64,000 nucleotides of DNA from Candidatus Woesebacteria bacterium. Lineage in GTDB: Bacteria > Patescibacteriota > Microgenomatia > UBA8517. The notes beneath the pieces were generated by a model. It saw only the letters and a program-made list of their open reading frames with translations. It was not told the origin of the DNA and did no database searches. This document shows positions 15,395 to 47,384 of the stretch, in pieces. The position numbers were made by a program, and so were the translations under genes. The stretch covers positions 74,479-138,478 of the forward strand of contig OY970314.1 of the NCBI GenBank assembly GCA_963716475.1. The letters are read 5' to 3'. How positions within the stretch are numbered: the first letter of the stretch is position 1; the number at the start of each line of letters is the position of its first letter.

Positions 15395-18300
15395 ATGCCC
15401 ACAAAAGAAAAAATCTCCGCGGTAAAAAAAGTTTTGGAAGGAATTTCTGTCTCTTCTGTTGCATCTGAGGCCGGGGTTGCCAGAAAAACAATATATTCGT
15501 GGCTAAATATTTATAAAGCCGCTGCCAAAAGAAACAAAAAAACCTGTCTCTTGCCCAAATATGTGGCGGGAAGGGCTCACCCGAGGGAATATACGCACAC
15601 TTTGGAGCAGAAGACAGTAAGACTAATAAAGAAGGACCCGACACTTAGCGTTTCCAAAATGGCTGAAAGATTAAACGCAGGACATCATGCGGTTTACAAT
15701 CTTTTAAAGGCCTTAAAATTGAACACAGAAGATTCCAGGCTTGCATACTCCCGGATTTACTCATATCCCGGTATTTTTGACCCCCAAATTAAGGAATCGG
15801 TTGCAAGGAAAATTGTGAATTCGGAAGGAAAAGTCACGGATATTTCCAGGGAGCTACGGGTTTCCAGAAAGACTATATATAAATGGTTAAAAGAATACAA
15901 AGAGAAGGGAACAGTAAGAAATAACTATTTGAAAGGTTTTGAACACCCCAGATCACTTGGCCCGGAGGCGGAAGCGTCAGTGCTCTCGCAAGTCGTAAAG
16001 GCGCCGGAACTTTCAATTCATGCCTTGGCCACCGGTTTAAACTTTTCCAATCATGCGGTTTTTAATATTCTAAAAAGAAATTTCCTGACTCAAAGAAATG
16101 CCAGGATTATCTATTCTCAGGCTCAGGCTATCCGGGTTTCCGAAAAACCGGAAGCTATCGGTTTTATCGACAGGATAAAGAGTGTTTTTGAAACCTTTAC
16201 TCCGAATCTGGCCCCGGCTCCGCCTCCGGGGGGAAAATCCAAGTTTAGCCCTCTTCTTAAAATCTCCCTGGCTTCGATAATCGTTTTACCGCTTTTCACT
16301 CTTGCCCTGGTCTATTGGGTGAATCTATTAAGGTCCGGTGCAGCAGGGAACGTCGTCGGGCTTATCTTTGCCACAATATCCCTGATTATGGGTACTTTCT
16401 TCTTTTTATATTCACTCAAATATTATTTTACGGTCGCTTTGGTTCTTTCCCGCACCCAGCAGGAAGGGTCAAAAAGCCGTACTTCTATCGGTCTTGAACC
16501 CAATCTCGATCACGTAATTCTCACAAAGAAGCCATACATATCAGTTCATATACCTTTTTATAATGAGAAGAATGTAGTAGAGCGTGCAATTGAGGCTTCA
16601 ACCAATTTCGATTACCCGGAGTATGAAGTGATTCTTTGTGATGATTCAACCGATGAAACAACAACCATTATCAGGGATTATCAAAAGAAATATCTTTCAA
16701 AAGGGGAGAGCTTAAAAATAACTACCAATAGTCAAGACGGCTGGGAGCTGTCCCATGTGGATGTCAGACCGGGAGTAACCCTTAAACATCTTCACAGGAT
16801 CTCAAGAGAAGGTTACAAGGGGGGAGCACTCAGGCTAGCTCTTACTCAGACTGATCCCAGGGCTGAGTTTGTCTCTGTCTTTGATGCCGATTTTGTTCCA
16901 TATCCTGATTCTCTAAACCTTTTCCTCAAGTACTTTAAAGCTGAGAATAACATGAGTGAGGATTATACAGTAAGTAAGGTTGCTGCGGTTCAAGGTTACC
17001 AGTGGCATGTACTTAATAAATCCGAAAACTGGATAACCAGGGGTGTCAGAAGTGAATATGCAGGTAGCTACGTTATCGAAAGAGCGGGAACTGAAATCTA
17101 TGGGGGACTAAAACAAATCTCGGGGTCAGTATATATGATTAGACGTAAGCCCCTAGAAGAAGTAGGCTGGGCCACATCAATCACTGAGGACTTTGAACTT
17201 ACTCTCAAACTATATAATGCCGGCTACAAGGTGGTCTATACACCTTATATACAAGCTCCTGCAGAATGTGTATCAACCCTAAGACGCTTAGTGAGGCAAC
17301 GTATGCGTTGGGCCGAGGGTCATTCTTTCAATGTCAAAAAGATGTTTGCAAAGCTTATGTTCTCTCCGAAACTTTCTTCTGCCGAGAAGTTTGAAACGGT
17401 TTACCTTGCCCCTTACTACCTTCAGGCATTCTTTTTTGTAGTCGGAACTCTTTCCTGGTTTATCAGTGAGACTCTCCTGCCTGCCCGTCTGCCTTTCTGG
17501 ACAGAACTTTGGGGATGGAGTCTGGTCTTAACCAACATGGTAGCCCTTCCCCTTATGAACACCGTCGGAATGTTCCTGGAAGAAAGTGAACAGAAGGACT
17601 ATACAGGAATACTATCATTCGTCGCTCTTTCATACCTTGTGGTCCCGTTTCAGGCCTACGCGGCTGTCAAGGGCTTTCTGGAGACCTCAGAAGGGCCTTG
17701 GTTTAGAACTCCCAAGACCGGTAGAATCACAGACGTCTTTGCCAGGGGTAAATTCTACAGGCTTATCAGACAGATCCTTCCCAGAAGAGCCACCTCATTC
17801 CAAAGTACTTATTCATACAACTACATTACCTTAACGACAGCAAATAATAGATTTAGCAATTTTAAAATAAAAAGGTCGGGAAATAAATATATTTCAAAAG
17901 CATTACTTACGGGATTAACGATTATTATTTTACTTTTGAATCAACTTAGCTTCTTTGCCCCGGGAGTACTTGCGGCAAGTCCTAACCCTACTATTGAACA
18001 ACAAATAAATTTTATGGATAAATTATACTCTACAACCAGCACGAGTGCCGCACCGGGCGATAATTCTTTAGGAATGTTTACTTGGAATGACTCAAAATAT
18101 AATAACGCAACTGTTAATATGGACTATGATGCTGGGAAAAGCGGAAACTTGTCTTATGGCCTAACTTCTGTGGGACTTTCTTTGGTTAATGGAACAACAT
18201 ACACACCGGCAATAAGGTATCAATGTCTTGCAGTGAGTGGAATAGCAACCGAATACGCTATTCCAGGGTTATATACGTCAGGTGGAGTTTTAGTTCAATT

Positions 18301-19282
18301 CTCAGAAGTTTCAATTTCTCTCGGCGAGGTTCCGGGTGGGAAATGTCCTACTTCAGCGAACAGAACACCTGCATATATTGCTGCGGCACGCCTAAGAATT
18401 GTACAGACAAATGCTACCGGAATTACAAATACCAGAAACATGATTGAACTGGGAGATGGTGAAACCATTTCAACAGGTACAACAGCAACTCAGCTAACTT
18501 ACCCCAAATATTGGCTTTATACATCGGGAAATTATGACGGGACTGTTACTACGACTTTTGAAGCGACTGTTTGGAGGGCCGGTGGCAGTTCATACACCGC
18601 CTACGTATGTCTGTATTCTACAGCAGGCAGTGAGATCGGGTGTGTGAGTACCACAAGTACATCCCCGGCTTACCCGACCGCAGTAAGCGTAACCCTGTCA
18701 AACGGAACCGAATATGAAGTAAGAGTCAAAGCCAGCGCAGCCGCAAAAACTGTATATATTGCAAACGCTAAAGTTATAGTTGATCAAGCAGCGGCAGGGG
18801 GAATTACCAAATTGGAAACAGTGCAACATTATAATAACACTCTGGCAACGGAATCAACATCTTCCTATGTTTCTAAGCAATTTTTAACCGAGTTTGTTTT
18901 GGATAACTGGTATGGCGGAACGTTTGCTGCCTATTTTGAGTCGGATATAAAGACTAATAACAGTTCAAATGCCTATTATGCTCGTTTGTACGATATTTAT
19001 AATGCTACCCCTATGGGAGAGATTACAGGTAATGATACTTCCTATGTTAGAAAAACCAGTTCGGATATATGGAGTTCTCTTGCTGCGGGTGGCAATACAA
19101 TGATAGACGTTCAACTGAAAAATAATTCGACCAGCACCACCTCATCATCAAATTCTTGGTTAATCATTAAAGTAACAAATTTACAAGTGCCCGAGAAGCT
19201 TATTTTTGCCCTGCCGTTGATATCCTTAATCCCGATTATAATTAAAAAAAGGAAGGAGATTCTATTAAATAGAAATGGTTGA
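15395..19282 (+). CDS. Giant gene 1: tandem HTH - polytopic processive GT2 synthase - variable ectodomain - VPE-CTERM protein
   Basis: 1295 aa. Two HTH modules ('VASEAGVARKTIYSWLNIYK', 'ISRELRVSRKTIYKWLKEYKEKG'). GT2 motifs 'CDDSTDET', 'FDADFVPYPD', 'QGYQWH', 'SITEDFELT' and 'RQRMRWAEGH'. Multiple TM segments and a Ser/Thr/Asn-rich C-terminal ~400 aa, ending 'VPEKLIFALPLISLIPIIIKKRKE'. Confidence 0.85.
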   Translation: MPTKEKISAVKKVLEGISVSSVASEAGVARKTIYSWLNIYKAAAKRNKKTCLLPKYVAGRAHPREYTHTLEQKTVRLIKKDPTLSVSKMAERLNAGHHAVYNLLKALKLNTEDSRLAYSRIYSYPGIFDPQIKESVARKIVNSEGKVTDISRELRVSRKTIYKWLKEYKEKGTVRNNYLKGFEHPRSLGPEAEASVLSQVVKAPELSIHALATGLNFSNHAVFNILKRNFLTQRNARIIYSQAQAIRVSEKPEAIGFIDRIKSVFETFTPNLAPAPPPGGKSKFSPLLKISLASIIVLPLFTLALVYWVNLLRSGAAGNVVGLIFATISLIMGTFFFLYSLKYYFTVALVLSRTQQEGSKSRTSIGLEPNLDHVILTKKPYISVHIPFYNEKNVVERAIEASTNFDYPEYEVILCDDSTDETTTIIRDYQKKYLSKGESLKITTNSQDGWELSHVDVRPGVTLKHLHRISREGYKGGALRLALTQTDPRAEFVSVFDADFVPYPDSLNLFLKYFKAENNMSEDYTVSKVAAVQGYQWHVLNKSENWITRGVRSEYAGSYVIERAGTEIYGGLKQISGSVYMIRRKPLEEVGWATSITEDFELTLKLYNAGYKVVYTPYIQAPAECVSTLRRLVRQRMRWAEGHSFNVKKMFAKLMFSPKLSSAEKFETVYLAPYYLQAFFFVVGTLSWFISETLLPARLPFWTELWGWSLVLTNMVALPLMNTVGMFLEESEQKDYTGILSFVALSYLVVPFQAYAAVKGFLETSEGPWFRTPKTGRITDVFARGKFYRLIRQILPRRATSFQSTYSYNYITLTTANNRFSNFKIKRSGNKYISKALLTGLTIIILLLNQLSFFAPGVLAASPNPTIEQQINFMDKLYSTTSTSAAPGDNSLGMFTWNDSKYNNATVNMDYDAGKSGNLSYGLTSVGLSLVNGTTYTPAIRYQCLAVSGIATEYAIPGLYTSGGVLVQFSEVSISLGEVPGGKCPTSANRTPAYIAAARLRIVQTNATGITNTRNMIELGDGETISTGTTATQLTYPKYWLYTSGNYDGTVTTTFEATVWRAGGSSYTAYVCLYSTAGSEIGCVSTTSTSPAYPTAVSVTLSNGTEYEVRVKASAAAKTVYIANAKVIVDQAAAGGITKLETVQHYNNTLATESTSSYVSKQFLTEFVLDNWYGGTFAAYFESDIKTNNSSNAYYARLYDIYNATPMGEITGNDTSYVRKTSSDIWSSLAAGGNTMIDVQLKNNSTSTTSSSNSWLIIKVTNLQVPEKLIFALPLISLIPIIIKKRKEILLNRNG
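19187..19279 (+). other. C-terminal tripartite sorting-signal-like region (VPEK / Pro-rich hydrophobic / KKRK)
   Basis: 'VPEKLIFALPLISLIPIIIKKRKEILLNRNG' at the extreme C-terminus of giant gene 1. The layout matches PEP-CTERM / archaeosortase signals. Confidence 0.65.
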
Positions 19283-19838
19283 AAAAAGGAAAATTATAAA
19301 TATTTTGCTTATAGCCAGCCTAATTTTGGCTTTACTGCCTTTTTATGTGAGCTTTCAGGATTTACTTACAAATATAGTTATGAAGGTAAATTTGTATAAA
19401 GCTTTACAAAACACAATTGTGCCATATGAAATGAAAGTGGTAGGCGGAATTATAAACCTGTTACGTTTTCCGATTAGCGCAGGCAGTAGTTATTTTTCAT
19501 GGAATATAGCCAATGGTAAAAAAGAAGCAGTCTATTTGGCCTGGAACTGTATTGGTTGGCAGACTATGATACTGTTTTTGGTGACATTAGTTACAGGTTT
19601 TTCAAAAAGACACCTCTTAAGTTCAAAAATTGAAGCTATTTTAATAGGAGCGCTAGGGACATATATAATAAACATTGTAAGGATTACTGTTGTTATTTTG
19701 ATCTATTTCTGGTTTGGCCGGGGGTTTGGAATAATATTCCACGATTACTTCTCATCTCTAATTACAATATTCTGGTTAATAGGGTATTGGCTGTTTGTTT
19801 ATAAACATACCCTAATAGAAAAATCCGTCGAAGAGTAG
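19275..19838 (+). CDS. Miniature exosortase/archaeosortase-like polytopic protein (cassette 1)
   Basis: 187 aa with about 5 hydrophobic segments. Motifs 'AWNCIGWQT', 'INIVRITV' and 'IFHDYFS' are conserved in the paralogues at 33555 and 41283. The ATG overlaps the giant-gene stop by 8 nt. Confidence 0.62.
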   Translation: MVEKRKIINILLIASLILALLPFYVSFQDLLTNIVMKVNLYKALQNTIVPYEMKVVGGIINLLRFPISAGSSYFSWNIANGKKEAVYLAWNCIGWQTMILFLVTLVTGFSKRHLLSSKIEAILIGALGTYIINIVRITVVILIYFWFGRGFGIIFHDYFSSLITIFWLIGYWLFVYKHTLIEKSVEE

Positions 19839-20437: not shown

Positions 20438-20467
20438 TTGACAGGTGTTAGGATGGTTGGTAACAAT
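20438..20467 (+). promoter_or_regulatory. Promoter of giant gene 2: TTGACA-N11-GGTTGGTAACAAT
   Basis: TTGACA at 20438-20443 and the 13-mer at 20455-20467, identical in sequence and spacing to gene 1. The -10-like hexamer ends 7 nt before ATG 20474, which suggests a leaderless mRNA. Confidence 0.5.
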
Positions 20468-20473
20468 GAATAT

Positions 20474-23400
20474 ATGCCCTTTTCCGAAGCTAAAAGAGAA
20501 AAGATCGTTTTATCCGTACTAAAGGATAATATTGCGGTTTCGGAAGTCTCCAGAAACTACTCTGTTGCCCGAAAAACTATTTACTCTTGGATAAAGAGGT
20601 ATAAAAAGGGAAGTCTTGCTCCACTATATACAAAGGGCAGGAAACACCCGGCGGCCGTATACCCGAAAGCCTATTCTTATATAAGTAGATGGGCTGTAGG
20701 GCACCCCAAGTGGGGATGCCGCACTTTGAGTAAAAGATTAAATGAAAAAGGAATCAGCTTGAGCTACGTTCAGGTTAACAGATTGTTGAACACAATCGGA
20801 GCGGAGACTTATGACAGAAGGTTGAATTATGCCAGAAACTTTGCCGGTCCGGGGAGAACCAGGGAGGATGTCAGGCTTGAAATTGTCAAAAAGGCCGTTA
20901 CCGGGAAAATTTCCATTACAACTCTTTCCGAAAACTACAAAGTTGCCCGTAAGACCATATATAAATGGATAGCGAAATACCGGGCCATTGGTAACATTAA
21001 AGATTCGTACGTCGTTGGTGAGGCTCATCCCAAGGCAATCTACCCGAAAATTACGCAGCAAGTACTCGACTTGGTCGTTACAAACCCCGGTTATTCGGTA
21101 CGCACTCTGGCTAAATCATTTCCGGCATCCTCTTGGACCATCTGGAGTATTTTAAATAGAAATAATCTGAATACATATAATTTAAGGCTCGAATATTCCA
21201 GGAATATATCTGAGGCTGCCGAAGAGAAAGTCTCGACAACGGGAGTTTCCGAAAGGATAAGATCTGTTTTTGAAAGCTTTACTCCAAATCTGGCTCCGGC
21301 CCCGCCTCCGGGGAAACGTAAAATCTTCAACTTCTTCATTATTTCAGTCTTCCTCTTATCAATATCCTTAGCAATTTTCTATTGGGGATCCGTAATTGTT
21401 CACGCTCCGAATATTGCCGGGTCCATAGGCATGATTTTTGCAGGCGTCTCACTGTCACTCGGAATGTTTTTCTTCCTTTATTCTCTTAAATACTATATTT
21501 CTACAGCGATAGTGCTTTCATATTCACAGAAAGAGGGCTTAGATGCCTCGAGAGTAAGCGCTACCGGCTTAAACTCAGACCTCAGTAACATTCATCTTGA
21601 ACGGCATCCTTATGTCTCGGTTCATCTGGCTCTCTATAACGAGAAGAATGTGGTGGAAAGACTGATGAAAGCAGCTACTTCTTTCGATTACGACAATTAT
21701 GAAGTAATCATCGCGGATGACTCAACTGATGAAACCACCGACAAAATCAGGGAGTTTCTGAAAACATTCCTTCCTAAAGGTGAATCGCTTCGGCAAACCA
21801 AAGGGGACGGGTGGGCAATGACAGAAGTTGACATAAGGAGCGGGGTTGTCTTTAAACATGTCCATAGAACCACAAGGATGGGTTATAAAGGGGGAGCGCT
21901 GAAGCTTGCCCTTTCTCTTACCGACCCGAAAGCTGAATTTGTTTCTGTCTTTGATGCCGATTTTGTGCCTTACCCAGATTCCCTGATGCTATTTCTTAAA
22001 TACTTCAAACTACAGAATAATGGATCAGAAGACTACAAAACAAGTAATACTGCATCAGTTCAGGGCTATCAGTGGCACGTACTTAATAAATCAGAAAACT
22101 GGATTACTAGGGGAGTCAGAAGTGAGTATGCAGGTAGCTACGTAATAGAAAGAGCCGGAACCGAAATCTACAAAGGCCTAAAGCAAATCTCGGGATCAGT
22201 TTACATGATCAGGCGCGATGTTTTGGAAGGAATAGGTTGGGGTACTTCTATCACTGAGGACTTTGAGCTTACCCTGAAACTCTACGAAAAAGGCTACAAA
22301 GTGGTTTATACGCCGTATATTCAGGCTCCGGCTGAATGCGTATCGACCCTAAGAAGACTTGTCAGACAACGTATGCGTTGGGCGGAAGGACATTCTTTCA
22401 ATGTCAAAAAGATGTTCGCAAAGCTTATGTTCTCTCCAAAACTTTCTTCCGCCGAGAAGTTTGAAACGGTTTATCTTGCCCCTTACTATCTACAGGCATT
22501 ATTCTTCCTCATCGGAACTCTCTCCTGGTTCATTTCGGAAACCATTTTACCCGCCCGCCTTCCTTTCTGGACAGAGCTTTGGGGATGGAGTTTGGTTCTG
22601 ACCAATATGATTTCACTGCCGCTTCTAAACACAGTCGGACTTTTCTTAGAGGAATCGGACAGAAAGGATTACTCGGGTATTCCATCTTTTATAGCTCTTT
22701 CATATATAGTTGTTCCGTTTCAGGCCTATGCGGCTGTAAAAGGCTTTCTGGAGAAGGAGGAAGGACCATGGTTTAGAACTCCGAAAACCGGCCGCATTAC
22801 GGATGTTTTCAAAAGAGGTAAGTTCTACAAATTTATTTCCGGGATCTTGCCGGGGAAGGCTGCCGGTTCTGCCACGAGTTATGATCTAAGTCCTTATCTT
22901 GCCCTGACCTCAGCCAATAATAGATTCAGCTCGTTCTCCATTCAAACAAGAAAAGGCAGAAGGTGGGTGGGAAAACTAATGCTAACCTCAATGCTTATTA
23001 TTTCCAATCTTCTTCTTTCTTTTTCTCCTTATATTGAATCAAGGGACGGCAACAGCCAACCTCCTCCGGGAACAGGTATTCTTATGGATGGCAGTACAAA
23101 AGGATCGGGAGGCAAGGTCAATTTAACTCCTGAGCAGCAGCAGTCTTTGGACAAATCGATTAAAGCGAATAACCAAAAAACAAGCTTTAAACTGGTTAGC
23201 GATGTCTCGGCAGCAGAAATATCCGGAGGCAGTGAGGTGAACACCTCCTTTGATGTTAAAAAGAAAGACCTTGAACTTAGCGGGGGAAATACCACCTTTA
23301 CAACTGATGAAAATCCCCAATTTACCTTAAAGCAGAACGACGGTTTTTGGGAATTTATCAAGAATATTTTCATTAAAGAAAAACCCTTGAAAGATCAGGT

Positions 23401-26400
23401 TGTTGTAACAGTTTTGGACTTAAAAGGTAAGGAGGTGGGAAGCCCGCAGGTGGTAGAAGGTGGAATTGATGATTTAAGTATAAATCTTGACAAAACAACC
23501 CTTACTCCGGGCGGATATACTCTTGAGATCAAAAGTGGGAGTAGCCCCGTTATCACCCAGGATTTCAGTTGGGGAGTGCTGGCAATAAATACCAATAAGT
23601 CGGTATATAGTCCGGGTGAAGACGCCTCCATTTCAATGGGGGTTCTTAATGAAGTTGGAGAAACGCTTTGTAGCGCGGGACTAACGCTTGATATTACAGA
23701 CACGGCAGGCACAGTTACCGCTTTAACCACAAAGGAGGGCACCATTAAAGTCAGCGATGAATGCAGCCTCAAGGGCTTCAGCCTGAAACCCGACTATGAA
23801 GCAGCCTACAAAACAACGGTTGCAGGAAAGTACAGCATGGTTCTGACTGCAGAGACTCTTAACGGCAAATATGTTATCAAGGGTTGGTTTGAGGCAAAAG
23901 ACTCGGTCGATTTTGACGTCGAAACGATTACGGCCTCCAGAATTAATCCGGTTTATGAATACCCGGTTATTTTTATAGTTAAGGCGGGTAAAGACTACAA
24001 TGGCATTGTTGAAGAAAAAGTCCCGGCCGGCTTTGAAATCAGTAAACTCAACGACTTAAAGTTGAATAACTATCTGGATTCTAAAGGGGAAAGTACGGCA
24101 AGCGGTAAACTTCAGGAGACACTGGTTAATGACGGTTCACAGGAGGCGGGACAAAAAACACTCCGTTGGATTGTTGACTGGAAAAAAGACCAGACTTATG
24201 TTCTTGCATACGCTTTTAAAGCGCCGATGGTCAGTCCAGAATTTTATCTACTCGGGCCGCTCTGGATCGGGGCATATGAGGGAGCGGGAGGTTGGCAGAT
24301 AGCCGCGGATAAGGTCCCTGCTGGGATTATTGTCGGTTGGCCGTCAACTGTAGCCTCAATTCCTAATCACTGGAGCAGGGTTTCAGGCGCGGCTCTTGAC
24401 GGGTACTTTTTAAGATCAGTAACAGCAACTGATCCGTCGGGTACTCCCGGAGGAAATGCCAGCCATACTCATTCACCGGCGAGTCATACTCATTCCGTTC
24501 CTGTCCATACACATACAGTTCCCGCTTTTGCCCAATCAACCAATACTTCGGCAACGACGGGTAACTCTACGGGTTCCGCCCGTGATACTCATACTCATGC
24601 GGCATTTAGTTCCGGAAATTCCAACGTAACCGTCAATAATGCCCAGACGGTTCCTTTTGCGGGACTTTCCAATGACCCCGATAATTCAACCGTCATCTGG
24701 ATCCAGTCGGACGGAGACCCGTCTACCGAAATTCCGGTAGGGTCTTATGTTTACTTTGACTCAAACACCATGCCGGGAGCCAACTGGGGTAGAGTAAAGG
24801 GAAATTACTTCCTTAAAGGTGCGGCAACGGGTTTAGGGGGAGGAACCGATACGGTAACAGGTTCCGCAACTCATACCCACGCCGCCTCAGCCGACCATAC
24901 CCATACTGAGGCTGCCCATACCCATTCAGGGAGCTCGGCAGGAGGTTCACTTGCTGTTTCCAGTACGGGAACTGGGTCTTACTCTCCGAGTGGCCATACA
25001 CATACCGTTACCTCAAGCTCCGTTGCGGCAACGGAGGGAGGAGCATCGGTAACCCCGACAGTCGGAGTGGCCGCTCCCTCGGGAGAACCTCCTTGGTACA
25101 AACTTAATATCATTAGTAAGTCTACAGGTGCTAATGAAACTCCTTTAAATGTCATTGCCATGTGGACCGGAACTCTGGCAACAATTCCCGACGGTTGGGT
25201 AATTTGTGACGGAACAAATGGAACTCCAAACCTGGGTACAAACTTTATCAAAGGCGCAAATGCCGACGGGGAGCTCAATACCACCGGGGGTTCCCTTACC
25301 CACACTCATGGGGCAGGCAATACCCATACACATACAATAAATGCTCACGTACACACCTGGACGGTTGGAGCTGCCTCCGGAACCGGTGTTGGATTAACGG
25401 GAAATGGAAGATCAGCCGTGGTCAGTACTCATACACATACCCTCAGCGCTGCGCAAACATCAAGTGGCGGAGGTTCAACAGGAACGGCAACTATTACGGC
25501 CGACTCGCAATCTAATCTTCCTCTCTACAAAGAGGTTGCCTACATTATGTATATCGGTAAGACTGTTGCCGGTAAAGCCTATTCGGATGAAGCAACCAGT
25601 ATCTGGGCCGGTTGTGACAACTCGACTGCCAGAATAAGTTTGGTAGTTAACGGCGGTACAGCCTCCACAACCTCATGCAGCAGTTCAGACGGATCTTTCA
25701 GTTTCAAGAATGTTACTCACGCGACAGATAATCCAATATCGGTATTTTTTAATACCGCAGGTAGCAATGCCGACAAAGGTGTGGCAGTTACTATCGCCAA
25801 CGATGCCACTACTCCGATTACCCTTAATCCCAGAAAAAATATTGTCTGGATGAGGAGTGAGAAAGCAACACCGACCATTACCAACTCCAATCTGGCTCAT
25901 TGTTATGCCTCAACCCCCGCAAGCTGTGCCAATGTCCCGTATTCTGCTTCGGGAGCCAATATAACCCTAACTACTGGAGTTGAGCTTCATGTAGAAAGCA
26001 GTATGACATATGATCCCGGGGGAACCACTGCAACCACCGGTACCGGAAGTCTGCATGTGGATGACAATGCTGTCGCATACTTGGATACTACTGGCAATAC
26101 CATTGCTAATAATATTTTAGTGGATGCCGGGGCGACCATTCATATTGATGCCAGTACGGCAGTAAACGGGGGAAATATCACGGTTACAGGTAACGGAATA
26201 GTATCTTCAGCCGCCGGAACCGTAACTATGGGGGCAAGCGGAACCATTGGGGGAGGATCAACAGGATCTACCTTCCAGTTAACAGATCTTGTTGTTTCTT
26301 CGGGGACTACAACCCTGGGGACGGATGCCGACAATATACTGGACTTTACCGGGGATATCAACGTTTCGGCCGGAGCCGTGCTTGCCATGAACAATAAAAC

Positions 26401-29400
26401 CGCTAATGTAGACGGAGGAAATCTGACGACAACTTCTACCGGGTCAGTTACCTGTTCAGGTTGTACGACTGGCGGTTTAACAATTTCAGGAGTCGGAACA
26501 ACAAATGGTATAGGCGGGGGAGGTGGAGCTATAACTTTATACAACCTGACACTTGACGGATCAACCAATACCACAACAGTCGGGTCAAGCGCCATTACGG
26601 TAACCAATGATGTAACAATAGGTACGGGAAGAACCCTGTCAGGAGCCGCATCAGGAACAATCTATGTGGGACACAACTGGGCCAACAGCGGCACTTACAA
26701 TGCCAACTCGGGAACTATTAATTTAAATGCAGCAGCCGATACTGTTCAACAGATAACAGGTGCGACCACATTTTATAATTTATATGTAGCTACTGGAGAT
26801 AGGATTATTAAATTTGGTTCATCAACCGCTTTTACCATTGATACCGGAGGAACCTTTACGGCAACAGGGGATTCCTGTTCGGCACTTGTGGTAATCCGTT
26901 CAACCACTTCCGGGAGTGCCGCAACAATTACCAAGACAGGTTCCGTTTCCTTCTCATATATAGATATACAGGATATCAACTTTTCGGCTTCTGCCTCGGC
27001 TTCTAATTCAGTCGATTCCGGAAACAACAGTAGTATCGTCATTGCAGCCAATAGCTGTCTTGGTGCATCAACCAATAACCAAGCCGCAACAGGTCATTCA
27101 TTCCAGAGAAAAGTATTCTATGATTCCGGGAATAATGTCTACTGGGGTTTCTACCATGACGGAACCCAGATCGAAGTCAGGTATTCATCAAATAGTGGCT
27201 CTACTTGGAATGTAGAAAATGACCATCTGGTACAAAATACCAACGACTTTTCCGTCTGGGACCAGACAATCTCCTCCTACTACGTCTTTTTGGCAGCCAA
27301 AAGCAGCGACAGTATTGTCTTAAGAAGAGGAACAATAACTTCAGGTGCAATCTCATGGGACAGTGAAACAACTCCGGTTACAGCCTTTACGGGGACGGGT
27401 TCAGGCGATTCTTATTCCTATCCCTATATCTCTGCCGATTCATCCGGTAATCTCTGGGTGGGAGCCAGATATTTTAACGGATCAAGTTATGTCTACAAAG
27501 CAGTCAAAAGTAACAATGCAGGAAGTGCTACCTGGACAAACGCTGCTTTTACCTGGGGAGATCCTTCTCAAATCTCTAATGATCAAGCCGACCCTAACGT
27601 TTTTGGCAATGTAGTATCCATAGGCTCGCTGAATATGTACGCAACATTCGTAGTAGGTACAACTATCAAAGGCTGTAAATACACCAATTCTCCTCCTGCC
27701 TGGAAGAATTCAGCAGGGACAGATTCATGCGTAACAACCGAGGGTAGTGGCGGCGGGGAGTCAACATATTTTGATAGCTTAAGTACCGGGTTAGTTGCGT
27801 ACTGGAAAATGAATGAAACTTCCTGGACAGGAGCGAGTAACGAGGTGGTTGATTCATCAGGCAACGGTAACAATGGAACTCGTGTAGGCGATGCAACAAC
27901 AACGGCTGCAGGGTTTTATAGGTCAGGAACGTTCGATGGGACGGGAGATAGGGTTTCTGTTCCTGACAAGACAGACTGGACATTATCGTCCGGAATAGAT
28001 CTGACATATTCAACCTGGATTAATTATACCGTATTGCCGGGGAGCACCAATTGGCCTGGTATTGTTGAAGGAGGTGATGATATGTATGGTTTCCAAATGA
28101 ATGGGCCCACTACCGGGAATATAGTTGTAGATTGGTGGGACGGTACTGTTGACCATACATCATCTTCGCAGGCTGTATCTGTCGGTACCTGGTATCATGT
28201 CGTGATAACTTTAGATTTTGGTGTAACTAATGGTTCCCATTGGTATTTTAACGGTAGAGACCTTGGAACTTTTACCGCACAAGATCGCAGTGTAAATCCT
28301 GATGCACTATATATCGGAGGTAGTGTTACCAATCCCGTTTCAAACAACGCTGTTAATGGAAAGATTGACGATCTGAGAATTTATAACAGGCTACTCTCTG
28401 GTGAAGAGGTTGCCAAACTTTATCAATATGCCCCGGATAGAGTCAATATCGACGATGCCAGTGATTTTAATGCTCCGTCCGGTAGACAAGTTGTTAGAGC
28501 GAAAAACGGGGATTTGTATACTTTTGTCAATGATGCGGGGACATGTGGGGTATGGAAGTCAACTGATGGAGCAAGTTGGTCAGAACAGGATAGTACTCAT
28601 CATAAAACTTGTATGAGTTATTCGGGGGTATCAATAGCGATTGATTCAACTGATAAGTTACATCTTTTATACGCTTCAGGATCCAACACCTTACAATATG
28701 ACACGTTTACTGCCGGGGCTTTTTCTATTCTTAATGAAAATATTTATAATGATGTTGGTGGCAATGGGCTAGGGGGTTTTGATATTGCTGTTGATGCAAA
28801 TAATATTCCCCACGTAGTCTATGTATACATAGACACGTTTACCGATAATCAACTTGGTTACGATAACCGTGTAGGTGGCGCTTGGAATGGTTCAGATGCT
28901 AACCCCGATACTGATAGTGTCGGATTGCTGTCTCCAACAATAGAGATTAATGAAACTGGGTATCCGGAAGTCTCATATATAAAGGCTAGTACTGGGGTTT
29001 TAGTGGCTAAGGCGGGAAACGGAAATGACCCCAATTTATGGGCAGGTTATAGTATAGATACGAGCGTTAATGTTACTGGCGGTCAGGGGGGTGCTTCAAT
29101 TGCAGTAGACACCTTGACCGGTAATACGTGGATAGCGTATGTCGACGGGGATAACGATATTTCTTTGGCAAAATATTCAGGGACGGATTATTCCGGATGG
29201 GAGACAGCCGGTAACTGGGCCACCGTGACCAGTAAAAGCGACGATGGGTACGACCCGTCAATTGCCATTACCGGACCTTCCGATATTTATGTTTTTTATC
29301 AGGATGATGGGGTGGCGGATAACGGAACTAATAAAAGGATCTCTTACGATATATATGATTCGATAGGAGAAGATTGGGCCGGGGAAGTTCCCCTACAAAC

Positions 29401-31624: not shown

Positions 31625-33550
31625 ATGAAAAGAAAATTTAATTTAAATGTTATCGGTAAGATATTTCTTTTGGCTTCGTTTCTAATACCTTTTGTTATTT
31701 ACCTTAAGACGCTTTGCCCGACGCTTTCCTCCTATGCTGATGCGGGAGAGTTCCCGACCTTTGCTTATATAAGCGGTTTTGCCCATCCTCCTGGGTACCC
31801 CCTGTATATTCTGATACTCAAGTTGTTCCTTTTATTGCCGGTCGCGGGGAGTGTTGCCATGAAAGCCAATTTGGCATCGGCATTTATCTCCGCGGCTTGC
31901 GTCGCCCTTACCTATCTTTGGCTGAGAAGACTAAAATTGGAAGAGGGCGTTGCCTTCACAACCTCGCAAATACTGGCCTTTACACCGATTTTTTGGAGAA
32001 ACGCGTTGATTTCCGAGGTCTTCGGTCTTCTGACGTTATTTATTGTTTTAACCAATTACATGTATCTAAGATGGACCGAGACGGGGGAGAAGAGGGACTT
32101 TTATCTTTTTCTTTTCTTTTGCGGTCTTGGCCTTTCCCATCACCAGCTTTTGATGATAGCTCTTGTTCCGCTTTTAGTGCATTTCATTATTACCAAGAAA
32201 TGGAAATTGATTAATTATAAAAATGTAATAATCGGAATAGCTCTGTTTTTGATTGGGTTCTTACCGTATTTATATATATTGTTATATTCTGCACCGCGTT
32301 GGCCTCTAATGAACTGGAACAACCCCAGCAGTTTGGTAGGTCTTAAGGAATTGATCACCCGTTCGACTTATGGCACTTTTACACTGACGAATCAGTATCA
32401 GGCGTCCGATTTAAAGGTACAGGCCTGGGGGATATTAAAGTTGATTTATAGTAATTATTCGCTTTTTGGAATCGTACTTTTTCCTTTCGGATTAATTTAC
32501 CTCCTTCTAAAAAAGAAGTGGGGCATGACCGCAACCAGCCTCTTTGTAATAATTGCTATTTTTCTTTTCTCCCTCTATTCGGGTATGCCGGTTTTGCAGA
32601 ACAGCCAAATACAATATCTGGAGCGTTTTCAACTTGCAAGCACGGCCTTTATGATTCTTATCATTGCCTTTGGAATTTCCTTTTTCAGGGACCTTGTTTT
32701 TTCCATTAAGCCTCTGAGAGTTCCGGTGCTAATTTTGTTCATGCTGATTCCGGCCGGCCTTGTCTATACAAATTACGCAAAAGTGGATCAAAGTAAAAAT
32801 TACTTTGCAGATAACCTTGCGGATGATATTTTTGCTTCCATCCCTAAAGACAGCATTTTTTTGATGGAGGGGGACAATGTCATTAATGATGTTTTTTATA
32901 ACCGCTACGTTTTGGGACAAAGGAAAGACATCATTTTTATCATAGGCGGACTTATGGACGCCCAGAGTCCCTGGTACCTACAGGAACTGAGGCGTTTTTA
33001 TCCGGACCTGGTTCTGCCTGAAGTTACCGACGACAGAACAGACTACTTAGACGCTTTCCTGGCAGAAAATTCGATAAAAAGGCAAATAATCTTGTATTTA
33101 CCCTCGCTTGAAAACGATTTGGGAATATACATCAATAAAGTAAATAGGGGAATTGTCTGGAAATTTGTCAGGGAGGATGAAGAAGTTTATCTGGGTGATG
33201 TTCAGGATGAAATCCTTGCGCTCACCGGTAGCTACAAAAACCTGAAAGGGAGATTAAATTATACGCTCGATTCTCCCGAATACGCTTTATTGAACCTTTA
33301 TACCCAACCTTATATTTATCTGGCTCAGATGAACGATGACGATCCTGTCTTATCAGAAGAGTACTATAAAAAGGCATTGGCAATTACGCCGGATAATTAT
33401 CAGGCTTTGACCGAGATGGGTGATGACTACTTGATGTATGGGGAGTATGAGAAAGCGGTCGCAAGCTGGAAGCAAGCTCTGAATTATATTTACGATAGTG
33501 ATTTGAGGGATGAAGTTTTGGCAAAAATAGACGAATACCAAAACCAGTAA
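31625..33550 (+). CDS. DUF2723 (TMEM260-like) GT-C membrane glycosyltransferase with C-terminal TPR repeats
   Basis: 641 aa. It has the N-terminal signature 'DAGEFPTFAYISGFAHPPGYPLY', about 10 hydrophobic segments and TPR-like 'EEYYKKALAITPDNYQALTEMGDDYLMYGEYEKAVASWKQAL'. It starts 12 nt after the giant gene 2 stop. Confidence 0.7.
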   Translation: MKRKFNLNVIGKIFLLASFLIPFVIYLKTLCPTLSSYADAGEFPTFAYISGFAHPPGYPLYILILKLFLLLPVAGSVAMKANLASAFISAACVALTYLWLRRLKLEEGVAFTTSQILAFTPIFWRNALISEVFGLLTLFIVLTNYMYLRWTETGEKRDFYLFLFFCGLGLSHHQLLMIALVPLLVHFIITKKWKLINYKNVIIGIALFLIGFLPYLYILLYSAPRWPLMNWNNPSSLVGLKELITRSTYGTFTLTNQYQASDLKVQAWGILKLIYSNYSLFGIVLFPFGLIYLLLKKKWGMTATSLFVIIAIFLFSLYSGMPVLQNSQIQYLERFQLASTAFMILIIAFGISFFRDLVFSIKPLRVPVLILFMLIPAGLVYTNYAKVDQSKNYFADNLADDIFASIPKDSIFLMEGDNVINDVFYNRYVLGQRKDIIFIIGGLMDAQSPWYLQELRRFYPDLVLPEVTDDRTDYLDAFLAENSIKRQIILYLPSLENDLGIYINKVNRGIVWKFVREDEEVYLGDVQDEILALTGSYKNLKGRLNYTLDSPEYALLNLYTQPYIYLAQMNDDDPVLSEEYYKKALAITPDNYQALTEMGDDYLMYGEYEKAVASWKQALNYIYDSDLRDEVLAKIDEYQNQ

Positions 33551-33554
33551 GAAA

Positions 33555-34127
33555 ATGAATCAAAAAGCGCTTTTTAAACAAATACTGGCAACCCTTGTAA
33601 TTATATTGGCAGTTTTACCTGTGATTGTGACTTTTTCGGCAGTTTTGACTTCATTTTTCGAAAAAATTAAGCTTTATGTGTGGCTTCAGGATCTGGCTGT
33701 TCCTTTTGAAAGCAGACTGGTTGCGGTTCTAATCCAACTCTTTGGAATCAAAGGAATTATAACCCCCGGCAGCAGTTTTGCCATGGTTTTGCGGACATCC
33801 TCGGGGACTTTTACCCCGGTTGCATTGGAATGGAACTGTTTGGGCTGGCAAAGCCTGATTCTATTGGGTCTTACCCTAATAACAGGCCTCAGGGGAGCTT
33901 ACACGGGTTTAAGTAAAGCCCAGGTTGTTCTTTTCGGAATACTCGGAACTTTTTTATCAAATCTATTCAGGATGGCTTTTATTGTCATTCTGGCTTTTTA
34001 TTGGAATTCATTTGCAGCTATGATTATCCATGATTATTTTGCCAGTTTTGTCGCTATCATCTGGATGTTATTTTTCTGGTGGTTCTCCTACAGGTATATT
34101 TTGGAGGAAAAACCTGCGGGAAACTAA
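33555..34127 (+). CDS. Miniature exosortase/archaeosortase-like polytopic protein (cassette 2)
   Basis: 190 aa with 'EWNCLGWQS', 'SNLFRMAF', 'IIHDYFA' and the tail 'FWWFSYRYILEEK' shared with cassette 3. It starts 4 nt after the upstream stop. Confidence 0.62.
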   Translation: MNQKALFKQILATLVIILAVLPVIVTFSAVLTSFFEKIKLYVWLQDLAVPFESRLVAVLIQLFGIKGIITPGSSFAMVLRTSSGTFTPVALEWNCLGWQSLILLGLTLITGLRGAYTGLSKAQVVLFGILGTFLSNLFRMAFIVILAFYWNSFAAMIIHDYFASFVAIIWMLFFWWFSYRYILEEKPAGN

Positions 34128-34435
34128 ACCAATTTTTGCAATTTGAAATCGGGGAAGAGACGCTTTTTAATCAGGATGTCGCTTTCCTCGCCTATTTTAA
34201 TCGCTTCCAGTAAATTCTTCACCCCAGCCAAATTGATGCCCTTATTTTGCGTTAGGTAGCGTACAAATTGGAGTTTATTGATATCCTCAATGGAGAATAG
34301 TCTTCTTTTGGACTCGGATCGGTAGGGAGTAATGAGCCCGAGACTTTCGTAAAGCATAATTGTCCGTGGATGAACTTTCAAAAGTCTCGCAGCTATGGAT
34401 ATAGGCAGAATTGGACTCTCACTAAGCTCAGTCAT
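34124..34435 (-). CDS. MerR-family transcriptional regulator
   Basis: 103 aa. 'LPISIAARLLKVHPRTIMLYESLGLITPYRSESKRRLFSIEDINKLQFV' is a MerR/HspR-type HTH plus wing. It is divergent from giant gene 3. Confidence 0.75.
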   Translation of the reverse strand: MTELSESPILPISIAARLLKVHPRTIMLYESLGLITPYRSESKRRLFSIEDINKLQFVRYLTQNKGINLAGVKNLLEAIKIGEESDILIKKRLFPDFKLQKLV

Positions 34436-41282: not shown

Positions 41283-41888
41283 ATGCCTAAAAACACATTC
41301 AAGACAATTTTGGTTGTATTTTCAATTATCATAATGCTTTTACCCATTTTTGCGGCTCTGAATGGCTTTTTGACGGGGGTTTTAGATAACGCCGGCTGGT
41401 ATAGACCTGTCCAGCAGTTTATTGTTCCCTGGCAGGCGAGGATAGTAGCCGGGGTAATCCGCCCTTTCGGAATTAACTCCAAAGTAACTCCGGGAAGTTC
41501 GCTGTCAACTTTCTATATGATTAAAAAGGAAACTGCCATCCCTGTCGATTTGTCCTGGAACTGTTTGGGGTGGCAATCTATCTTGTTGCTAATAGTATCC
41601 CTGATAACAGGGTTAAGAGGGCCATTTACTCATCTTTCAAGGATAAAGTGCGTCCTGTTCGGTTTGGTGGGTACTCTGCTTATCAATATCTTAAGAATGA
41701 GTGTTATTGCCCTGGGAATCTATTATATTAATGCCCTGGCTGCACAAATTATTCATGATTACTTGGCAGCCTTTTTTACAATAATTTGGCTATTTATCTT
41801 CTGGTGGTTTTCATATAGATACATCCTGGAAGAAAAGGAAAGCCATGATACGGGGAATGATAATATGGAAGTTACACCGAAGGGTTGA
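41283..41888 (+). CDS. Miniature exosortase/archaeosortase-like polytopic protein (cassette 3)
   Basis: 201 aa with 'SWNCLGWQS', 'INILRMSV', 'IIHDYLA' and 'FWWFSYRYILEEK'. It starts 9 nt after the giant gene 3 stop. Confidence 0.62.
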   Translation: MPKNTFKTILVVFSIIIMLLPIFAALNGFLTGVLDNAGWYRPVQQFIVPWQARIVAGVIRPFGINSKVTPGSSLSTFYMIKKETAIPVDLSWNCLGWQSILLLIVSLITGLRGPFTHLSRIKCVLFGLVGTLLINILRMSVIALGIYYINALAAQIIHDYLAAFFTIIWLFIFWWFSYRYILEEKESHDTGNDNMEVTPKG

Positions 41889-42988: not shown

Positions 42989-43117
42989 GACAGGTAGATT
43001 ATCAGAAATAGTATACTAGAAAAAGATTTAGGTACAATGGGACAAAAAAGAATCCATTGTGCGAAAACCCATTGACGTATATTGGGGTGTTTGGGTACAC
43101 TTGGGGCTGAATTAAAA

Positions 43118-47379: not shown

Positions 47380-47384
47380 ATGGT

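What the first reader, a model, noticed from the sequence alone, without database searches (positions are those of the whole stretch)
19275..19838. Near-minimal exosortase/archaeosortase-like enzymes (187-201 aa) in three copies
**Seen.** The paralogues at 19275-19838, 33555-34127 and 41283-41888 align end to end.
- Invariant blocks are W-N-C-(I/L)-G-W-Q, N-(I/L)-x-R-(I/M) and I-(I/F)-H-D-Y.
- Each block sits in or beside a hydrophobic segment.
- Copies 2 and 3 also share 'TPGSS' and the tail 'FWWFSYRYILEEK'.

**Established.**
- The exosortase/archaeosortase family is a polytopic core with an essential Cys in a C-x-G context and a conserved Arg in an N-x-x-R context.
- Both residues are required in Haloferax volcanii ArtA, to my recollection.
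- A conserved His has also been noted.
- Characterised members are considerably larger, several hundred residues.

**Inference.**
- These could be the smallest functional versions of the fold.
- Three divergent copies imply substrate-specific pairing rather than one housekeeping sortase.
Basis: partly seen in the sequence, partly recalled or inferred. Interest (0 to 1): 0.75.

Follow-up and report, generated by a model that had tools for sequence, protein, structure and literature searches.

The report
Three small dedicated exosortases (CPR bacterium)
These are three small membrane enzymes of the already known exosortase/archaeosortase family, each next to the giant surface protein whose C-terminal 'VPE' membrane anchor it most likely cuts. 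The enzyme kind and its small size are ordinary; the one-to-one pairing with sugar-polymer-synthase-fused targets is the modestly new part.

Summary
Three intact ORFs (187, 190 and 201 aa) sit at the stated coordinates, align end to end (33-48% identity, E 3e-33 to 9e-62) and share WNC(I/L)GWQ, N(I/L)xR(I/M) and HDY.

All three pass NCBIfam's curated exosortase/archaeosortase signature TIGR04178. None reaches the cut-off of any named Xrt/Art subfamily. Homologues in Microgenomates-group CPR bacteria are already labelled 'exosortase/archaeosortase family protein' by NCBI and JGI. Cys, Arg and His stay conserved down to 22% identity.

The 'near-minimal size' claim is not new: curated subfamilies have profiles of 155-202 positions (XrtS, XrtH, XrtX, XrtG, ArtH).

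The pairing inference holds:
- The window has exactly three proteins ending in VPE-hydrophobic-KKRK. Each lies directly upstream of a sortase, or one gene away.
- In 52 of 70 related loci the same arrangement recurs, against about 2.6% of other ORFs.
- Sortase clades track tail classes.
- Natural enzyme-substrate fusions exist in both orders.

The targets are unusual: HTH + processive GT2 synthase + giant Ser/Thr-rich ectodomain + tail.

Verdict: an unnamed, dedicated (one-to-one) exosortase subfamily with a VPE-type sorting signal. It is a new member of a known kind. Catalysis and the acceptor are untested.

The parts
19275..19838 (+). Exosortase-family gene, copy 1 (187 aa). Cys92 codon at 19548, Arg136 at 19680, His156 at 19740. 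Its start overlaps the stop of the upstream target gene by 8 nt.
   Evidence: ORF. TIGR04178 38.3 bits against a cut-off of 23. Motif coordinates. Its clade includes L024 and L028, whose targets carry LQ(V/I)PE tails.
33555..34127 (+). Exosortase-family gene, copy 2 (190 aa). Cys95 codon at 33837, Arg139 at 33969, His159 at 34029.
   Evidence: ORF. TIGR04178 32.2 bits. 157 homologues, many named exosortase/archaeosortase family protein. AF2 model with pLDDT 87.4.
41283..41888 (+). Exosortase-family gene, copy 3 (201 aa). Cys94 codon at 41562, Arg138 at 41694, His158 at 41754. It starts 9 nt after the stop of its target gene.
   Evidence: ORF. TIGR04178 31.6 bits. Its clade includes L006, L007 and L015, whose targets carry (E/Q)FTT(V/I)PEN tails.
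15395..19282 (+). Predicted target 1 (1295 aa). Domain order: two transposase-like HTH domains, TM helices, a processive GT2 synthase (PgaC/CelA-like, QRMRW), TM helices, a Ser/Thr-rich ectodomain, then the C-terminal sorting signal.
   Evidence: Pfam and NCBIfam. Hydropathy segments. 25% S+T in the ectodomain.
19187..19279 (+). Sorting signal of target 1: VPEKLIFALPLISLIPIIIKKRKEILLNRNG.
   Evidence: Translation. Tail scan.
20438..31612 (+). Predicted target 2 (3724 aa). Same HTH-GT2 N-terminal part, then a giant ectodomain with a Laminin_G_3 domain, then the C-terminal sorting signal.
31520..31609 (+). Sorting signal of target 2: VPEYLLLFLPLAPLLPFLSRVKKKRGALIR.
31625..33550 (+). GT-C-type glycosyltransferase (TMEM260/PMT-like) with C-terminal TPR, lying between target 2 and sortase 2. 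It is probably a protein O-glycosyltransferase for the ectodomains (inference).
   Evidence: Pfam PF11028 at 4.1e-26 and PF13231. In L011 and L039 the ORF directly upstream of the sortase ends in a similar sequence (read by eye, no domain search), with the tail-bearing ORF further upstream.
35013..41273 (+). Predicted target 3 (2086 aa). HTH-GT2 N-terminal part, ectodomain, C-terminal sorting signal.
41196..41270 (+). Sorting signal of target 3: VPENPLLLFGLYPLFAGFLKKLRRK.

Best explanation
**What they are.** The three genes encode functional members of the exosortase/archaeosortase family, which are polytopic membrane cysteine endopeptidases or transpeptidases. They belong to an as yet unnamed subfamily typical of Microgenomates-group CPR bacteria (Patescibacteria).

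**What each one does.** Each is a dedicated, one-to-one processing enzyme for the giant protein encoded just upstream.
- The target ends in a tripartite sorting signal: (V/I)-P-E-(N/K/R/Y), a short proline-containing hydrophobic helix, and a Lys/Arg cluster.
- The enzyme recognises this signal within the membrane and cleaves at or near the PE motif on the outer face, using the conserved Cys with Arg and His.
- Cleavage removes the C-terminal anchor. By analogy with ArtA, the new C-terminus may be passed to an acceptor such as a lipid or a glycan.

**Setting.** The targets carry their own processive GT2 polysaccharide synthase and sit in a glycan-biosynthesis island. The cassette therefore probably builds a glycosylated surface fibre or adhesin that stays tied to the cell by the synthase part.

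**Shown:** family membership, residue conservation, tail conservation, gene linkage and natural fusions.

**Inferred:** proteolysis, the cleavage site, the acceptor and the biological role.
For: **Family and residues**
- All three pass TIGR04178, as do 46 of 46 aligned homologues.
- Cys, Arg and His are invariant in 46 homologues and in 53/53, 52/53 and 53/53 locus-derived sequences.
- In 50%-identity cluster representatives down to 22% identity they are kept in 69/70, 68/70 and 64/70. Six of the seven exceptions are proteins whose HMM match stops early.
- Cys/Arg/His is the proposed triad of the family (bioRxiv 10.1101/2023.06.07.544157). Cys and Arg are essential in ArtA (PMC9263693).

**Pairing**
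- The window holds exactly three xPE-TM-basic tails and three sortases.
- In 52 of 70 related loci with upstream sequence, a same-strand ORF ending no more than 2.6 kb upstream carries such a tail. For 42 of them the gap is under 200 nt, and many are -4 to +14 nt.
- Only 14 of 547 other ORFs carry such a tail, and about half of those are further genuine targets.
- Pro and Glu are each present in 52 of 53 tails, and the helix carries conserved prolines.
- Sortase distance correlates with tail distance (Mantel r 0.35, 0 of 5000 permutations). The three window copies fall in three clades, each with like-tailed orthologues.

**Fusions**
- P0193 and P0233 read GT2-ectodomain-VPEN-TM-basic-sortase in one chain.
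- P0164, P0184 and relatives read sortase-ectodomain-VV(P/S/D)E-TM-basic.
- These fusions are seen in independent assemblies.

**Targets and context**
- 22 of 28 full-length targets contain the GT2 domain and 21 of 28 the HTH.
- The surrounding genes make polyprenyl phosphate and glycans.
Against: - No biochemical data exist for this subfamily.
- No exosortase structure is in the PDB to superpose.
- AF2 on a natural fusion left the tail at pLDDT below 50, so tail docking next to the Cys is not shown.
- The tails match no curated NCBIfam sorting-signal model.
- The targets stay membrane-anchored through the synthase helices, so the benefit of removing the C-terminal anchor is not obvious.
- The clade/tail correlation can arise from co-inheritance of whole cassettes and does not prove specificity.
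- 18 of 70 loci showed no tail with my pattern. Some are explained by split ORFs or by distances beyond 2.6 kb (for example L039); not all were examined.
Confidence: 0.8

Rival explanations
1. The small proteins are exosortase-fold accessory subunits of the GT2 synthases. They would gate, modify or export the polysaccharide rather than cut a protein, and the VPE tails would be ordinary C-terminal membrane anchors.
For: - They are always linked to a GT2 synthase, and P0193 and P0233 fuse the two.
- Exosortases in general sit in polysaccharide loci, and GT2 partners are curated for XrtG and XrtP.
- No cleavage has been demonstrated.
Against: - A plain anchor would not keep Pro-Glu in 52 of 53 tails, or an invariant Glu in the reverse-order fusions.
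- The Cys/Arg/His set typical of the proteolytic family is kept.
- The reverse-order fusions (P0164 group) contain a sortase, an ectodomain and a tail but gave no GT2 hit in Pfam.
Confidence: 0.1
2. One copy is the working housekeeping sortase for all VPE-tailed proteins. The other copies are redundant duplicates carried along by duplication of the cassette, with no substrate specificity.
For: - All tails share the same (V/I)PE core.
- The clade/tail correlation is also what co-inheritance alone would give.
Against: - The three copies are only 33-48% identical, yet each keeps the catalytic residues and has orthologues in other genomes with the same tail class. Redundant copies would be expected to decay in roughly 1-Mb genomes.
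- Tight coupling of each sortase to its own target, with overlaps of -4 to +14 nt, is widespread.
- Enzyme-substrate fusions argue for cis pairing.
Confidence: 0.08
3. They belong to an unrelated membrane family (CPBP/Rce1-type protease, transporter), and the C/R/H motifs are coincidental.
For: The Pfam PF09721 score is weak for the window copies (13.5 and 10.5 bits against a cut-off of 25.7).
Against: - The curated NCBIfam signature is passed by all three copies and by 46 of 46 homologues. The next-best hits are all Xrt/Art subfamilies.
- Several homologues carry precomputed PF09721 hits.
- No CPBP or transporter hit appears.
- PDB searches give only generic helix bundles.
Confidence: 0.02

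Closest known systems
XrtG / Firmicu-CTERM system of Firmicutes (NCBIfam TIGR03110 with XrtG-associated GT2 TIGR03111)
   Same: - A small exosortase (profile of 187 positions) in bacteria without an outer membrane.
- A dedicated system in which one CTERM target gene lies next to the enzyme, with GT2 glycosyltransferases in the same cassette (PMC12854382).
- 29 of 46 family members give sub-threshold XrtG hits.
- The targets' GT2 domain hits TIGR03111 weakly.
- A PTPS_related membrane protein lies nearby in the window. I recall such a protein being XrtG-associated, but I did not test this.
   Different: - Scores are far below the XrtG cut-off (at most 16 bits for the window copies against 102.75).
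- Here the GT2 synthase is fused to the target itself, together with N-terminal HTH domains.
- The sorting signal is (V/I)PE-type and matches no curated model.
- The host lineage is Microgenomates (CPR), and several cassettes occur per genome.
Archaeosortase C (ArtC, TIGR03762) with PEF-CTERM
   Same: - It is the best named-subfamily hit: 31.2 bits for copy 1, and 41 of 46 homologues hit it.
- The signal core also contains Pro-Glu, by my recollection of PEF-CTERM.
- Fused relatives occur on at least one contig whose neighbouring genes look archaeal (L079: FlaI/ArlJ-like).
   Different: - Scores are well below the cut-off of 100 bits.
- The window proteins align only to the C-terminal half of the 274-position ArtC profile (positions 119-271).
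- The residue after PE is N/K/R/Y, and F in only 1 of 53 tails.
- The hosts are bacteria.
Exosortase A / EpsH (XrtA, PF09721) with PEP-CTERM
   Same: - The same family, the same proposed Cys/Arg/His triad and the same tripartite signal logic with the motif abutting the helix.
- Location in polysaccharide loci (Haft preprint).
- A V-P-E start to the motif, by my recollection of PEP-CTERM.
   Different: - XrtA is larger (PF09721 profile of 254 positions; the window copies match only about positions 120-250).
- XrtA is one-to-many and occurs in diderm bacteria.
- The third motif residue is Pro in PEP-CTERM, not here.
Archaeosortase A (ArtA) with PGF-CTERM, Haloferax volcanii
   Same: It is the only member with mutational proof that the conserved Cys and Arg are needed, and with evidence for cleavage coupled to lipid attachment (PMC9263693). 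It serves as the mechanistic template.
   Different: - No ArtA hit among the listed NCBIfam families.
- A different signal (PGF).
- One enzyme serves many substrates.
- ArtA is about 300 aa (my recollection).

Membership tests
Exosortase/archaeosortase superfamily (NCBIfam TIGR04178 signature; Pfam PF09721) | Score above the curated cut-off of the family signature model | tested here: met
   TIGR04178 gives 38.3, 32.2 and 31.6 bits against a cut-off of 23, and 46 of 46 homologues match. Pfam PF09721 is below its cut-off for the window copies, but it is recorded for several homologues and passed by the fused relative P0193 (35 bits).
Exosortase/archaeosortase superfamily | Conserved Cys, Arg and His (proposed catalytic triad) | tested here: met
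   Invariant in A2. 53/53, 52/53 and 53/53 in locus-derived sequences. 69/70, 68/70 and 64/70 in distant representatives. The triad is as stated in bioRxiv 10.1101/2023.06.07.544157.
Exosortase/archaeosortase superfamily | Polytopic membrane protein with the conserved residues in or at membrane helices | tested here: met
   The AF2 model (pLDDT 87.4) has five long helices, with Cys at the start of helix 93-111, Arg in helix 118-149 and His in helix 152-182. Hydropathy agrees. The side of the membrane was judged only by the positive-inside rule (inference).
Exosortase/archaeosortase superfamily | Co-occurrence with proteins carrying a tripartite C-terminal sorting signal (motif, TM helix, basic cluster) | tested here: met
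   3 of 3 in the window. 52 of 70 related loci against 14 of 547 background ORFs. Tail residue frequencies.
Exosortase/archaeosortase superfamily | Endopeptidase or transpeptidase activity on the sorting signal | not testable with these tools
   Requires proteomics or mutagenesis. No solved structure is available for comparison.
Archaeosortase C (TIGR03762) | Score above the curated cut-off (100 bits) | tested here: not met
   31.2, 18.8 and 15.4 bits.
Exosortase XrtG (TIGR03110) | Score above the curated cut-off (102.75 bits) | tested here: not met
   13.3 bits (copy 1) and 16.2 bits (copy 3); copy 2 has no hit.
Other small named subfamilies (XrtS, XrtH, XrtX, ArtH, CrtC) | Score above each curated cut-off | tested here: not met
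   All at or below 16 bits against cut-offs of 86-225.
Known C-terminal sorting signals curated in NCBIfam (for example PEP-CTERM, PEF-CTERM, VPEID-CTERM, Firmicu-CTERM; names recalled, not checked against the library) | Tail matches a curated sorting-domain model | tested here: not met
   No family was reported for any of the three 45-aa tails at E up to 10. HMMER's filters may drop very short matches, so this is a weak negative.
Dedicated (one-to-one) sorting systems in Haft's sense | [quoted passage not shown] | tested here: met
   Definition. Gaps of -4 to 169 nt in 42 of 52 pairs. Three tails and three enzymes in the window.

The most novel reading that the evidence does not exclude
Each cassette may be a self-contained 'synthase-adhesin-sortase' machine.
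- The exosortase would not merely clip the anchor. It would transfer the freed C-terminus of the giant ectodomain onto the glycan chain being extruded by the GT2 synthase of the same polypeptide, or onto a polyprenyl-linked glycan. The product would be a covalent protein-polysaccharide surface fibre.
- The cytoplasmic HTH domains might couple assembly of this fibre to transcription.
- The natural single-chain enzyme-substrate fusions would then be self-processing versions of the same reaction.
Probability: 0.12. Interest if true: 0.8.

Novelty: new member of a known kind. Interest (0 to 1): 0.4.

Why it matters
- **Open mechanism.** Exosortases and archaeosortases are widespread, but their mechanism is unsettled. 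It is not known whether they are proteases or one-step transpeptidases, what the acceptor is, or what the structure looks like (no PDB entry).
- **A compact test system.** This subfamily offers a 190-aa enzyme with one defined neighbouring substrate, three orthogonal enzyme/tail pairs in one genome for specificity swaps, and natural single-chain enzyme-substrate fusions.
- **CPR biology.** It points to how these small-genome, probably host-attached bacteria build giant glycosylated surface proteins, which are candidates for attachment structures.
- **Limits.** The enzymes themselves are not a new kind, and their small size is not exceptional.

Tried and rejected
- **Tail docking in a natural fusion.** AF2 on the sortase-substrate fusion P0164 (alignment A3) was meant to show whether the tail docks at the Cys. 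The tail and linker had pLDDT below 50, so it was uninformative.
- **Tails against NCBIfam sorting-signal models.** No hits.
- **Naming the window's organism.** Exact protein look-up found no record. Only the contig size of 982,852 bp is known.
- **Literature.** No paper combines exosortase or archaeosortase with Patescibacteria, candidate phyla radiation or Microgenomates. Haft's 2012 paper (PMC3256604) is not held.
- **CPBP/transporter identity.** Considered and rejected: no such hits.
- **The 'smallest version of the fold'.** Considered and rejected: curated subfamilies of 155-202 positions already exist.
Full report
**1. The observation.**
- The ORF lists show three intact + strand ORFs at exactly the coordinates given: 19275-19838 (187 aa), 33555-34127 (190 aa) and 41283-41888 (201 aa).
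- They align over their whole length (A1). Pairwise BLASTP gives 36% identity (E 3e-33), 48% (E 9e-62) and 33% (E 7e-36).
- The three motif blocks are as described: WNC(I/L)GWQ, N(I/L)xR(I/M) and (I/F)HDY. So are 'TPGSS' and the 'FWWFSYRYILEEK' end shared by copies 2 and 3.
- tblastn with 53 family members finds no further copy in the window.

**2. What the proteins are.**
- Against NCBIfam, all three exceed the curated cut-off of the exosortase/archaeosortase signature TIGR04178 (38.3, 32.2 and 31.6 bits against 23).
- Every other listed hit but one (a 13.9-bit PsiE match for copy 3) is an exosortase or archaeosortase subfamily (ArtC, ArtH, XrtG, XrtS, XrtH, XrtX, CrtC). All are far below their cut-offs. 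Pfam's PF09721 is only weakly matched.
- A search of 5.8 billion proteins returned 157 homologues of 173-206 aa at 56-70% identity. Many are already named 'exosortase/archaeosortase family protein' by NCBI or JGI and come from Patescibacteria, Woesebacteria, Chisholmbacteria and the like.
- An exhaustive profile search found 471 clusters at 50% identity with E up to 1e-3.
- All 46 aligned members pass TIGR04178. 41 also touch ArtC and 29 touch XrtG, below threshold.
- The proposed catalytic residues hold up. Cys, Arg and His are invariant in 46 homologues. They are 53/53, 52/53 and 53/53 in sequences taken from 50 related loci plus the window. They are 69/70, 68/70 and 64/70 in cluster representatives down to 22% identity.
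- Six of the seven exceptions are proteins whose profile match stops early, probably because of frameshifts.
- The family's triad is given as Cys/Arg/His by Haft (bioRxiv 10.1101/2023.06.07.544157). In H. volcanii ArtA, Cys173, Arg214 and Arg253 are critical (PMC9263693).
- An AF2 model of copy 2 (pLDDT 87.4) has five long helices and a small three-stranded sheet. Cys lies at the start of the third helix, Arg in the fourth and His in the fifth.
- By the positive-inside rule (inference), both termini are cytoplasmic and the three residues lie toward the outer leaflet.

**3. Size.** The first tool result contradicts this. Curated subfamily profiles are 155 (XrtS), 158 (XrtH), 168 (XrtX), 187 (XrtG) and 202 (ArtH) positions long. 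The window proteins correspond to the C-terminal half of the longer ArtC and EpsH profiles, as those small subfamilies presumably do. Small size is therefore ordinary within the family.

**4. Surroundings and pairing.**
- A scan of all window ORFs for a C-terminal hydrophobic stretch followed by a basic cluster found six. Only three of these are long ORFs with a VPE motif before the helix: 15395-19282 (...VPEKLIFALPLISLIPIIIKKRKE...), 20438-31612 (...VPEYLLLFLPLAPLLPFLSRVKKKRG...) and 35013-41273 (...VPENPLLLFGLYPLFAGFLKKLRRK).
- Sortase 1 overlaps the end of the first by 8 nt. Sortase 3 starts 9 nt after the third. Sortase 2 follows the second with one gene in between, a TMEM260/PMT-like GT-C glycosyltransferase with TPR.
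- A scan of 185,579 species genomes returned 77 related loci. Nearly all are from Microgenomates-group CPR bacteria (Woese-, Curtiss-, Chisholm-, Gottesman- and Levybacteria), often with several per assembly.
- In 52 of the 70 loci with upstream sequence, a same-strand ORF of at least 150 aa ending no more than 2.6 kb upstream carries an xPE-hydrophobic-basic tail. In 42 the gap is under 200 nt, and many gaps are -4 to +14 nt.
- Among 547 other ORFs in the same loci only 14 match the pattern, and about half of those are evidently further targets.
- Pro and Glu are each present in 52 of 53 tails. They are preceded by V or I (48 of 53) and followed by N/K/R/Y, then a short helix with recurrent prolines at +8, +11 and +14, then Lys/Arg.
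- Conserved residues inside the helix are what Haft argues is expected for signals read by intramembrane enzymes.

**5. Specificity.**
- Ordering the 53 sortases by similarity groups the tails into recognisable classes, such as IQxSxLQVPE, EVATAPVPEY, NFEFATVPEK, VVPEFTTVPEN and xIPExLWL.
- The three window copies fall into three different clades, each with orthologues elsewhere that have like tails.
- The Mantel correlation between sortase and tail distances is 0.35, and 0 of 5000 permutations reach it.
- This shows old, stably maintained enzyme/tail pairs. It does not separate co-evolution from co-inheritance of whole cassettes.
- Stronger evidence comes from natural fusions in the exhaustive search. 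P0193 (946 aa) and P0233 (1227 aa) read GT2 synthase, ectodomain, 'EVPEN' plus helix plus basic residues, then an intact sortase domain. P0164, P0184 and four more representatives read sortase, helix, beta-rich ectodomain, then 'PG(I/M)VV(P/S/D)E' plus helix plus basic cluster, with the Glu invariant.
- P0233 and the P0164 and P0184 types recur in independent assemblies.
- The P0233 contig carries FlaI- and ArlJ-like genes, so it is probably archaeal.

**6. The targets.**
- All three giants begin with two transposase-type HTH domains and two TM helices.
- Next comes a processive GT2 synthase (best hits PgaC/IcaA and CelA; QRMRW motif visible), followed by further TM helices.
- Then comes a long ectodomain with 23-25% Ser+Thr, against 12-16% in the N-terminal part. 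The 3724-aa protein also has a Laminin_G_3 domain.
- Of 28 full-length tail-bearing ORFs in other genomes, 22 contain the GT2 part and 21 the HTH part. The architecture is therefore conserved, not an artefact of this genome.
- The window around the cassettes encodes a polyprenyl synthetase, undecaprenyl-diphosphate synthase, a further GT2, an epimerase, a GT4 and a PTPS_related membrane protein. It is a surface-glycan island, the classic setting for exosortases.

**7. Mechanism.**
- Shown: family membership, conserved Cys/Arg/His, a conserved tripartite tail, tight one-to-one linkage and enzyme-substrate fusions.
- Inferred, by analogy with ArtA and XrtA: each sortase binds the tail helix of its own giant protein in the membrane, cuts at or near Pro-Glu on the outer face, and releases or transfers the ectodomain's C-terminus.
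- The target stays anchored by its synthase helices. Processing may therefore free the distal end of a surface fibre, or couple it to a lipid or to the glycan made by the same polypeptide. The acceptor is unknown.

**8. Comparison with the known.**
- The closest described system is XrtG/Firmicu-CTERM. It has a small exosortase in monoderm bacteria, one adjacent target and GT2 partners (PMC12854382). ArtC is the best named profile hit. Both membership tests fail on score.
- One-to-one 'dedicated' systems with adjacent genes are an established concept.
- New here: an unnamed Microgenomates-centred subfamily; its (V/I)PE-type signal, which no curated model matches; targets that are fused to their own GT2 synthase and HTH domains; and natural enzyme-substrate fusions.
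- I found no paper linking exosortases to CPR bacteria.

**9. Verdict.**
- The finding is real and its family assignment is correct. The enzymes are a new member of a known kind, and the 'minimal size' angle is not new.
- Interest is moderate (0.4). The value lies in a compact, naturally paired (even fused) model system for an enzyme family whose chemistry and structure are still open, and in a lead on how CPR bacteria build giant glycosylated surface proteins.

Noticed in passing
window 15395-16200, 20438-21300, 35013-35700 (N-termini of the three giant proteins): Each giant membrane GT2 synthase begins with two transposase-type HTH domains (HTH_28/HTH_23/HTH_32; IS481/IS630-like). The fusion is conserved in 21 of 28 full-length orthologues in other genomes. 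A DNA-binding module on a polytopic polysaccharide synthase is odd and unexplained; it might act as a membrane-tethered regulator.
   Followed up: partly
P0193, P0233 (L078:3331-6171, L079:4916-8599); P0164, P0184, P0185, P0191, P0213, P0229 (L080:5332-6708): Natural single-chain fusions of exosortase and substrate occur in both orders: GT2-ectodomain-VPEN tail-sortase, and sortase-ectodomain-VV(P/S/D)E tail. The L079 contig looks archaeal because its neighbours are FlaI- and ArlJ-like. P0134 instead fuses the sortase to a class I methyltransferase.
   Followed up: partly
window 31625-33550 (+): A TMEM260/PMT-like GT-C glycosyltransferase with a C-terminal TPR sits between target 2 and sortase 2. 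In L011 and L039 the ORF directly upstream of the sortase ends in a similar sequence (read by eye only). It suggests O-glycosylation of the Ser/Thr-rich ectodomains.
   Followed up: partly
window 41966-42988 (-): A class-A beta-lactamase-like gene (PF13354, 1.1e-31) lies next to cassette 3. ORFs with similar C-terminal sequences lie between target and sortase in L015, L047 and L058, so it may be a regular cassette neighbour.
   Followed up: no
window 24200-25600 (about residues 1260-1700 of the 3724-aa protein): Repeated His-Thr-His runs (for example SHTHSPASHTHSVPVHTHTV, THTHGAGNTHTHTINAHVHT) follow 'IPDGWxxCDG'-like segments. From memory they resemble phage tail-collar or tail-fibre HxH repeats. 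Pfam reported nothing there at E up to 1e-3.
   Followed up: no
window 10637-12841 and 43082-52790: The cassettes are flanked by a polyprenyl synthetase, undecaprenyl-diphosphate synthase, a GT2, an NAD-epimerase, a GT4 and a 999-aa PTPS_related (PF10131) membrane protein. Together they form a surface-glycan island. From memory, PTPS_related proteins are also associated with XrtG systems.
   Followed up: partly
window 34124-34435 (-): A small MerR-family regulator gene converges on sortase 2, and its stop codon overlaps the sortase stop by 4 nt.
   Followed up: no
L069:763-1236 (contig labelled Candidatus Dormiibacterota): A family member outside the CPR whose upstream ORF ends in a different tail without Pro-Glu (…AESPLPAAGLALLAPLAAAALLGRRRRRQM). 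It may be a different signal flavour.
   Followed up: no
window 13846-15228 (+), 43814-45154 (+), 47385-48995 (+), 52774-55557 (+): Four sizeable ORFs (446-927 aa) in the island have no Pfam match at the thresholds used (E up to 1e-3 or 1e-5).
   Followed up: no
record titles (for example L001, L005, L006, L008): Many loci with typical Microgenomates-type cassettes come from MAGs titled 'uncultured Gammaproteobacteria' (binchicken co-assemblies). The label is probably a placeholder or a mis-assignment.
   Followed up: no
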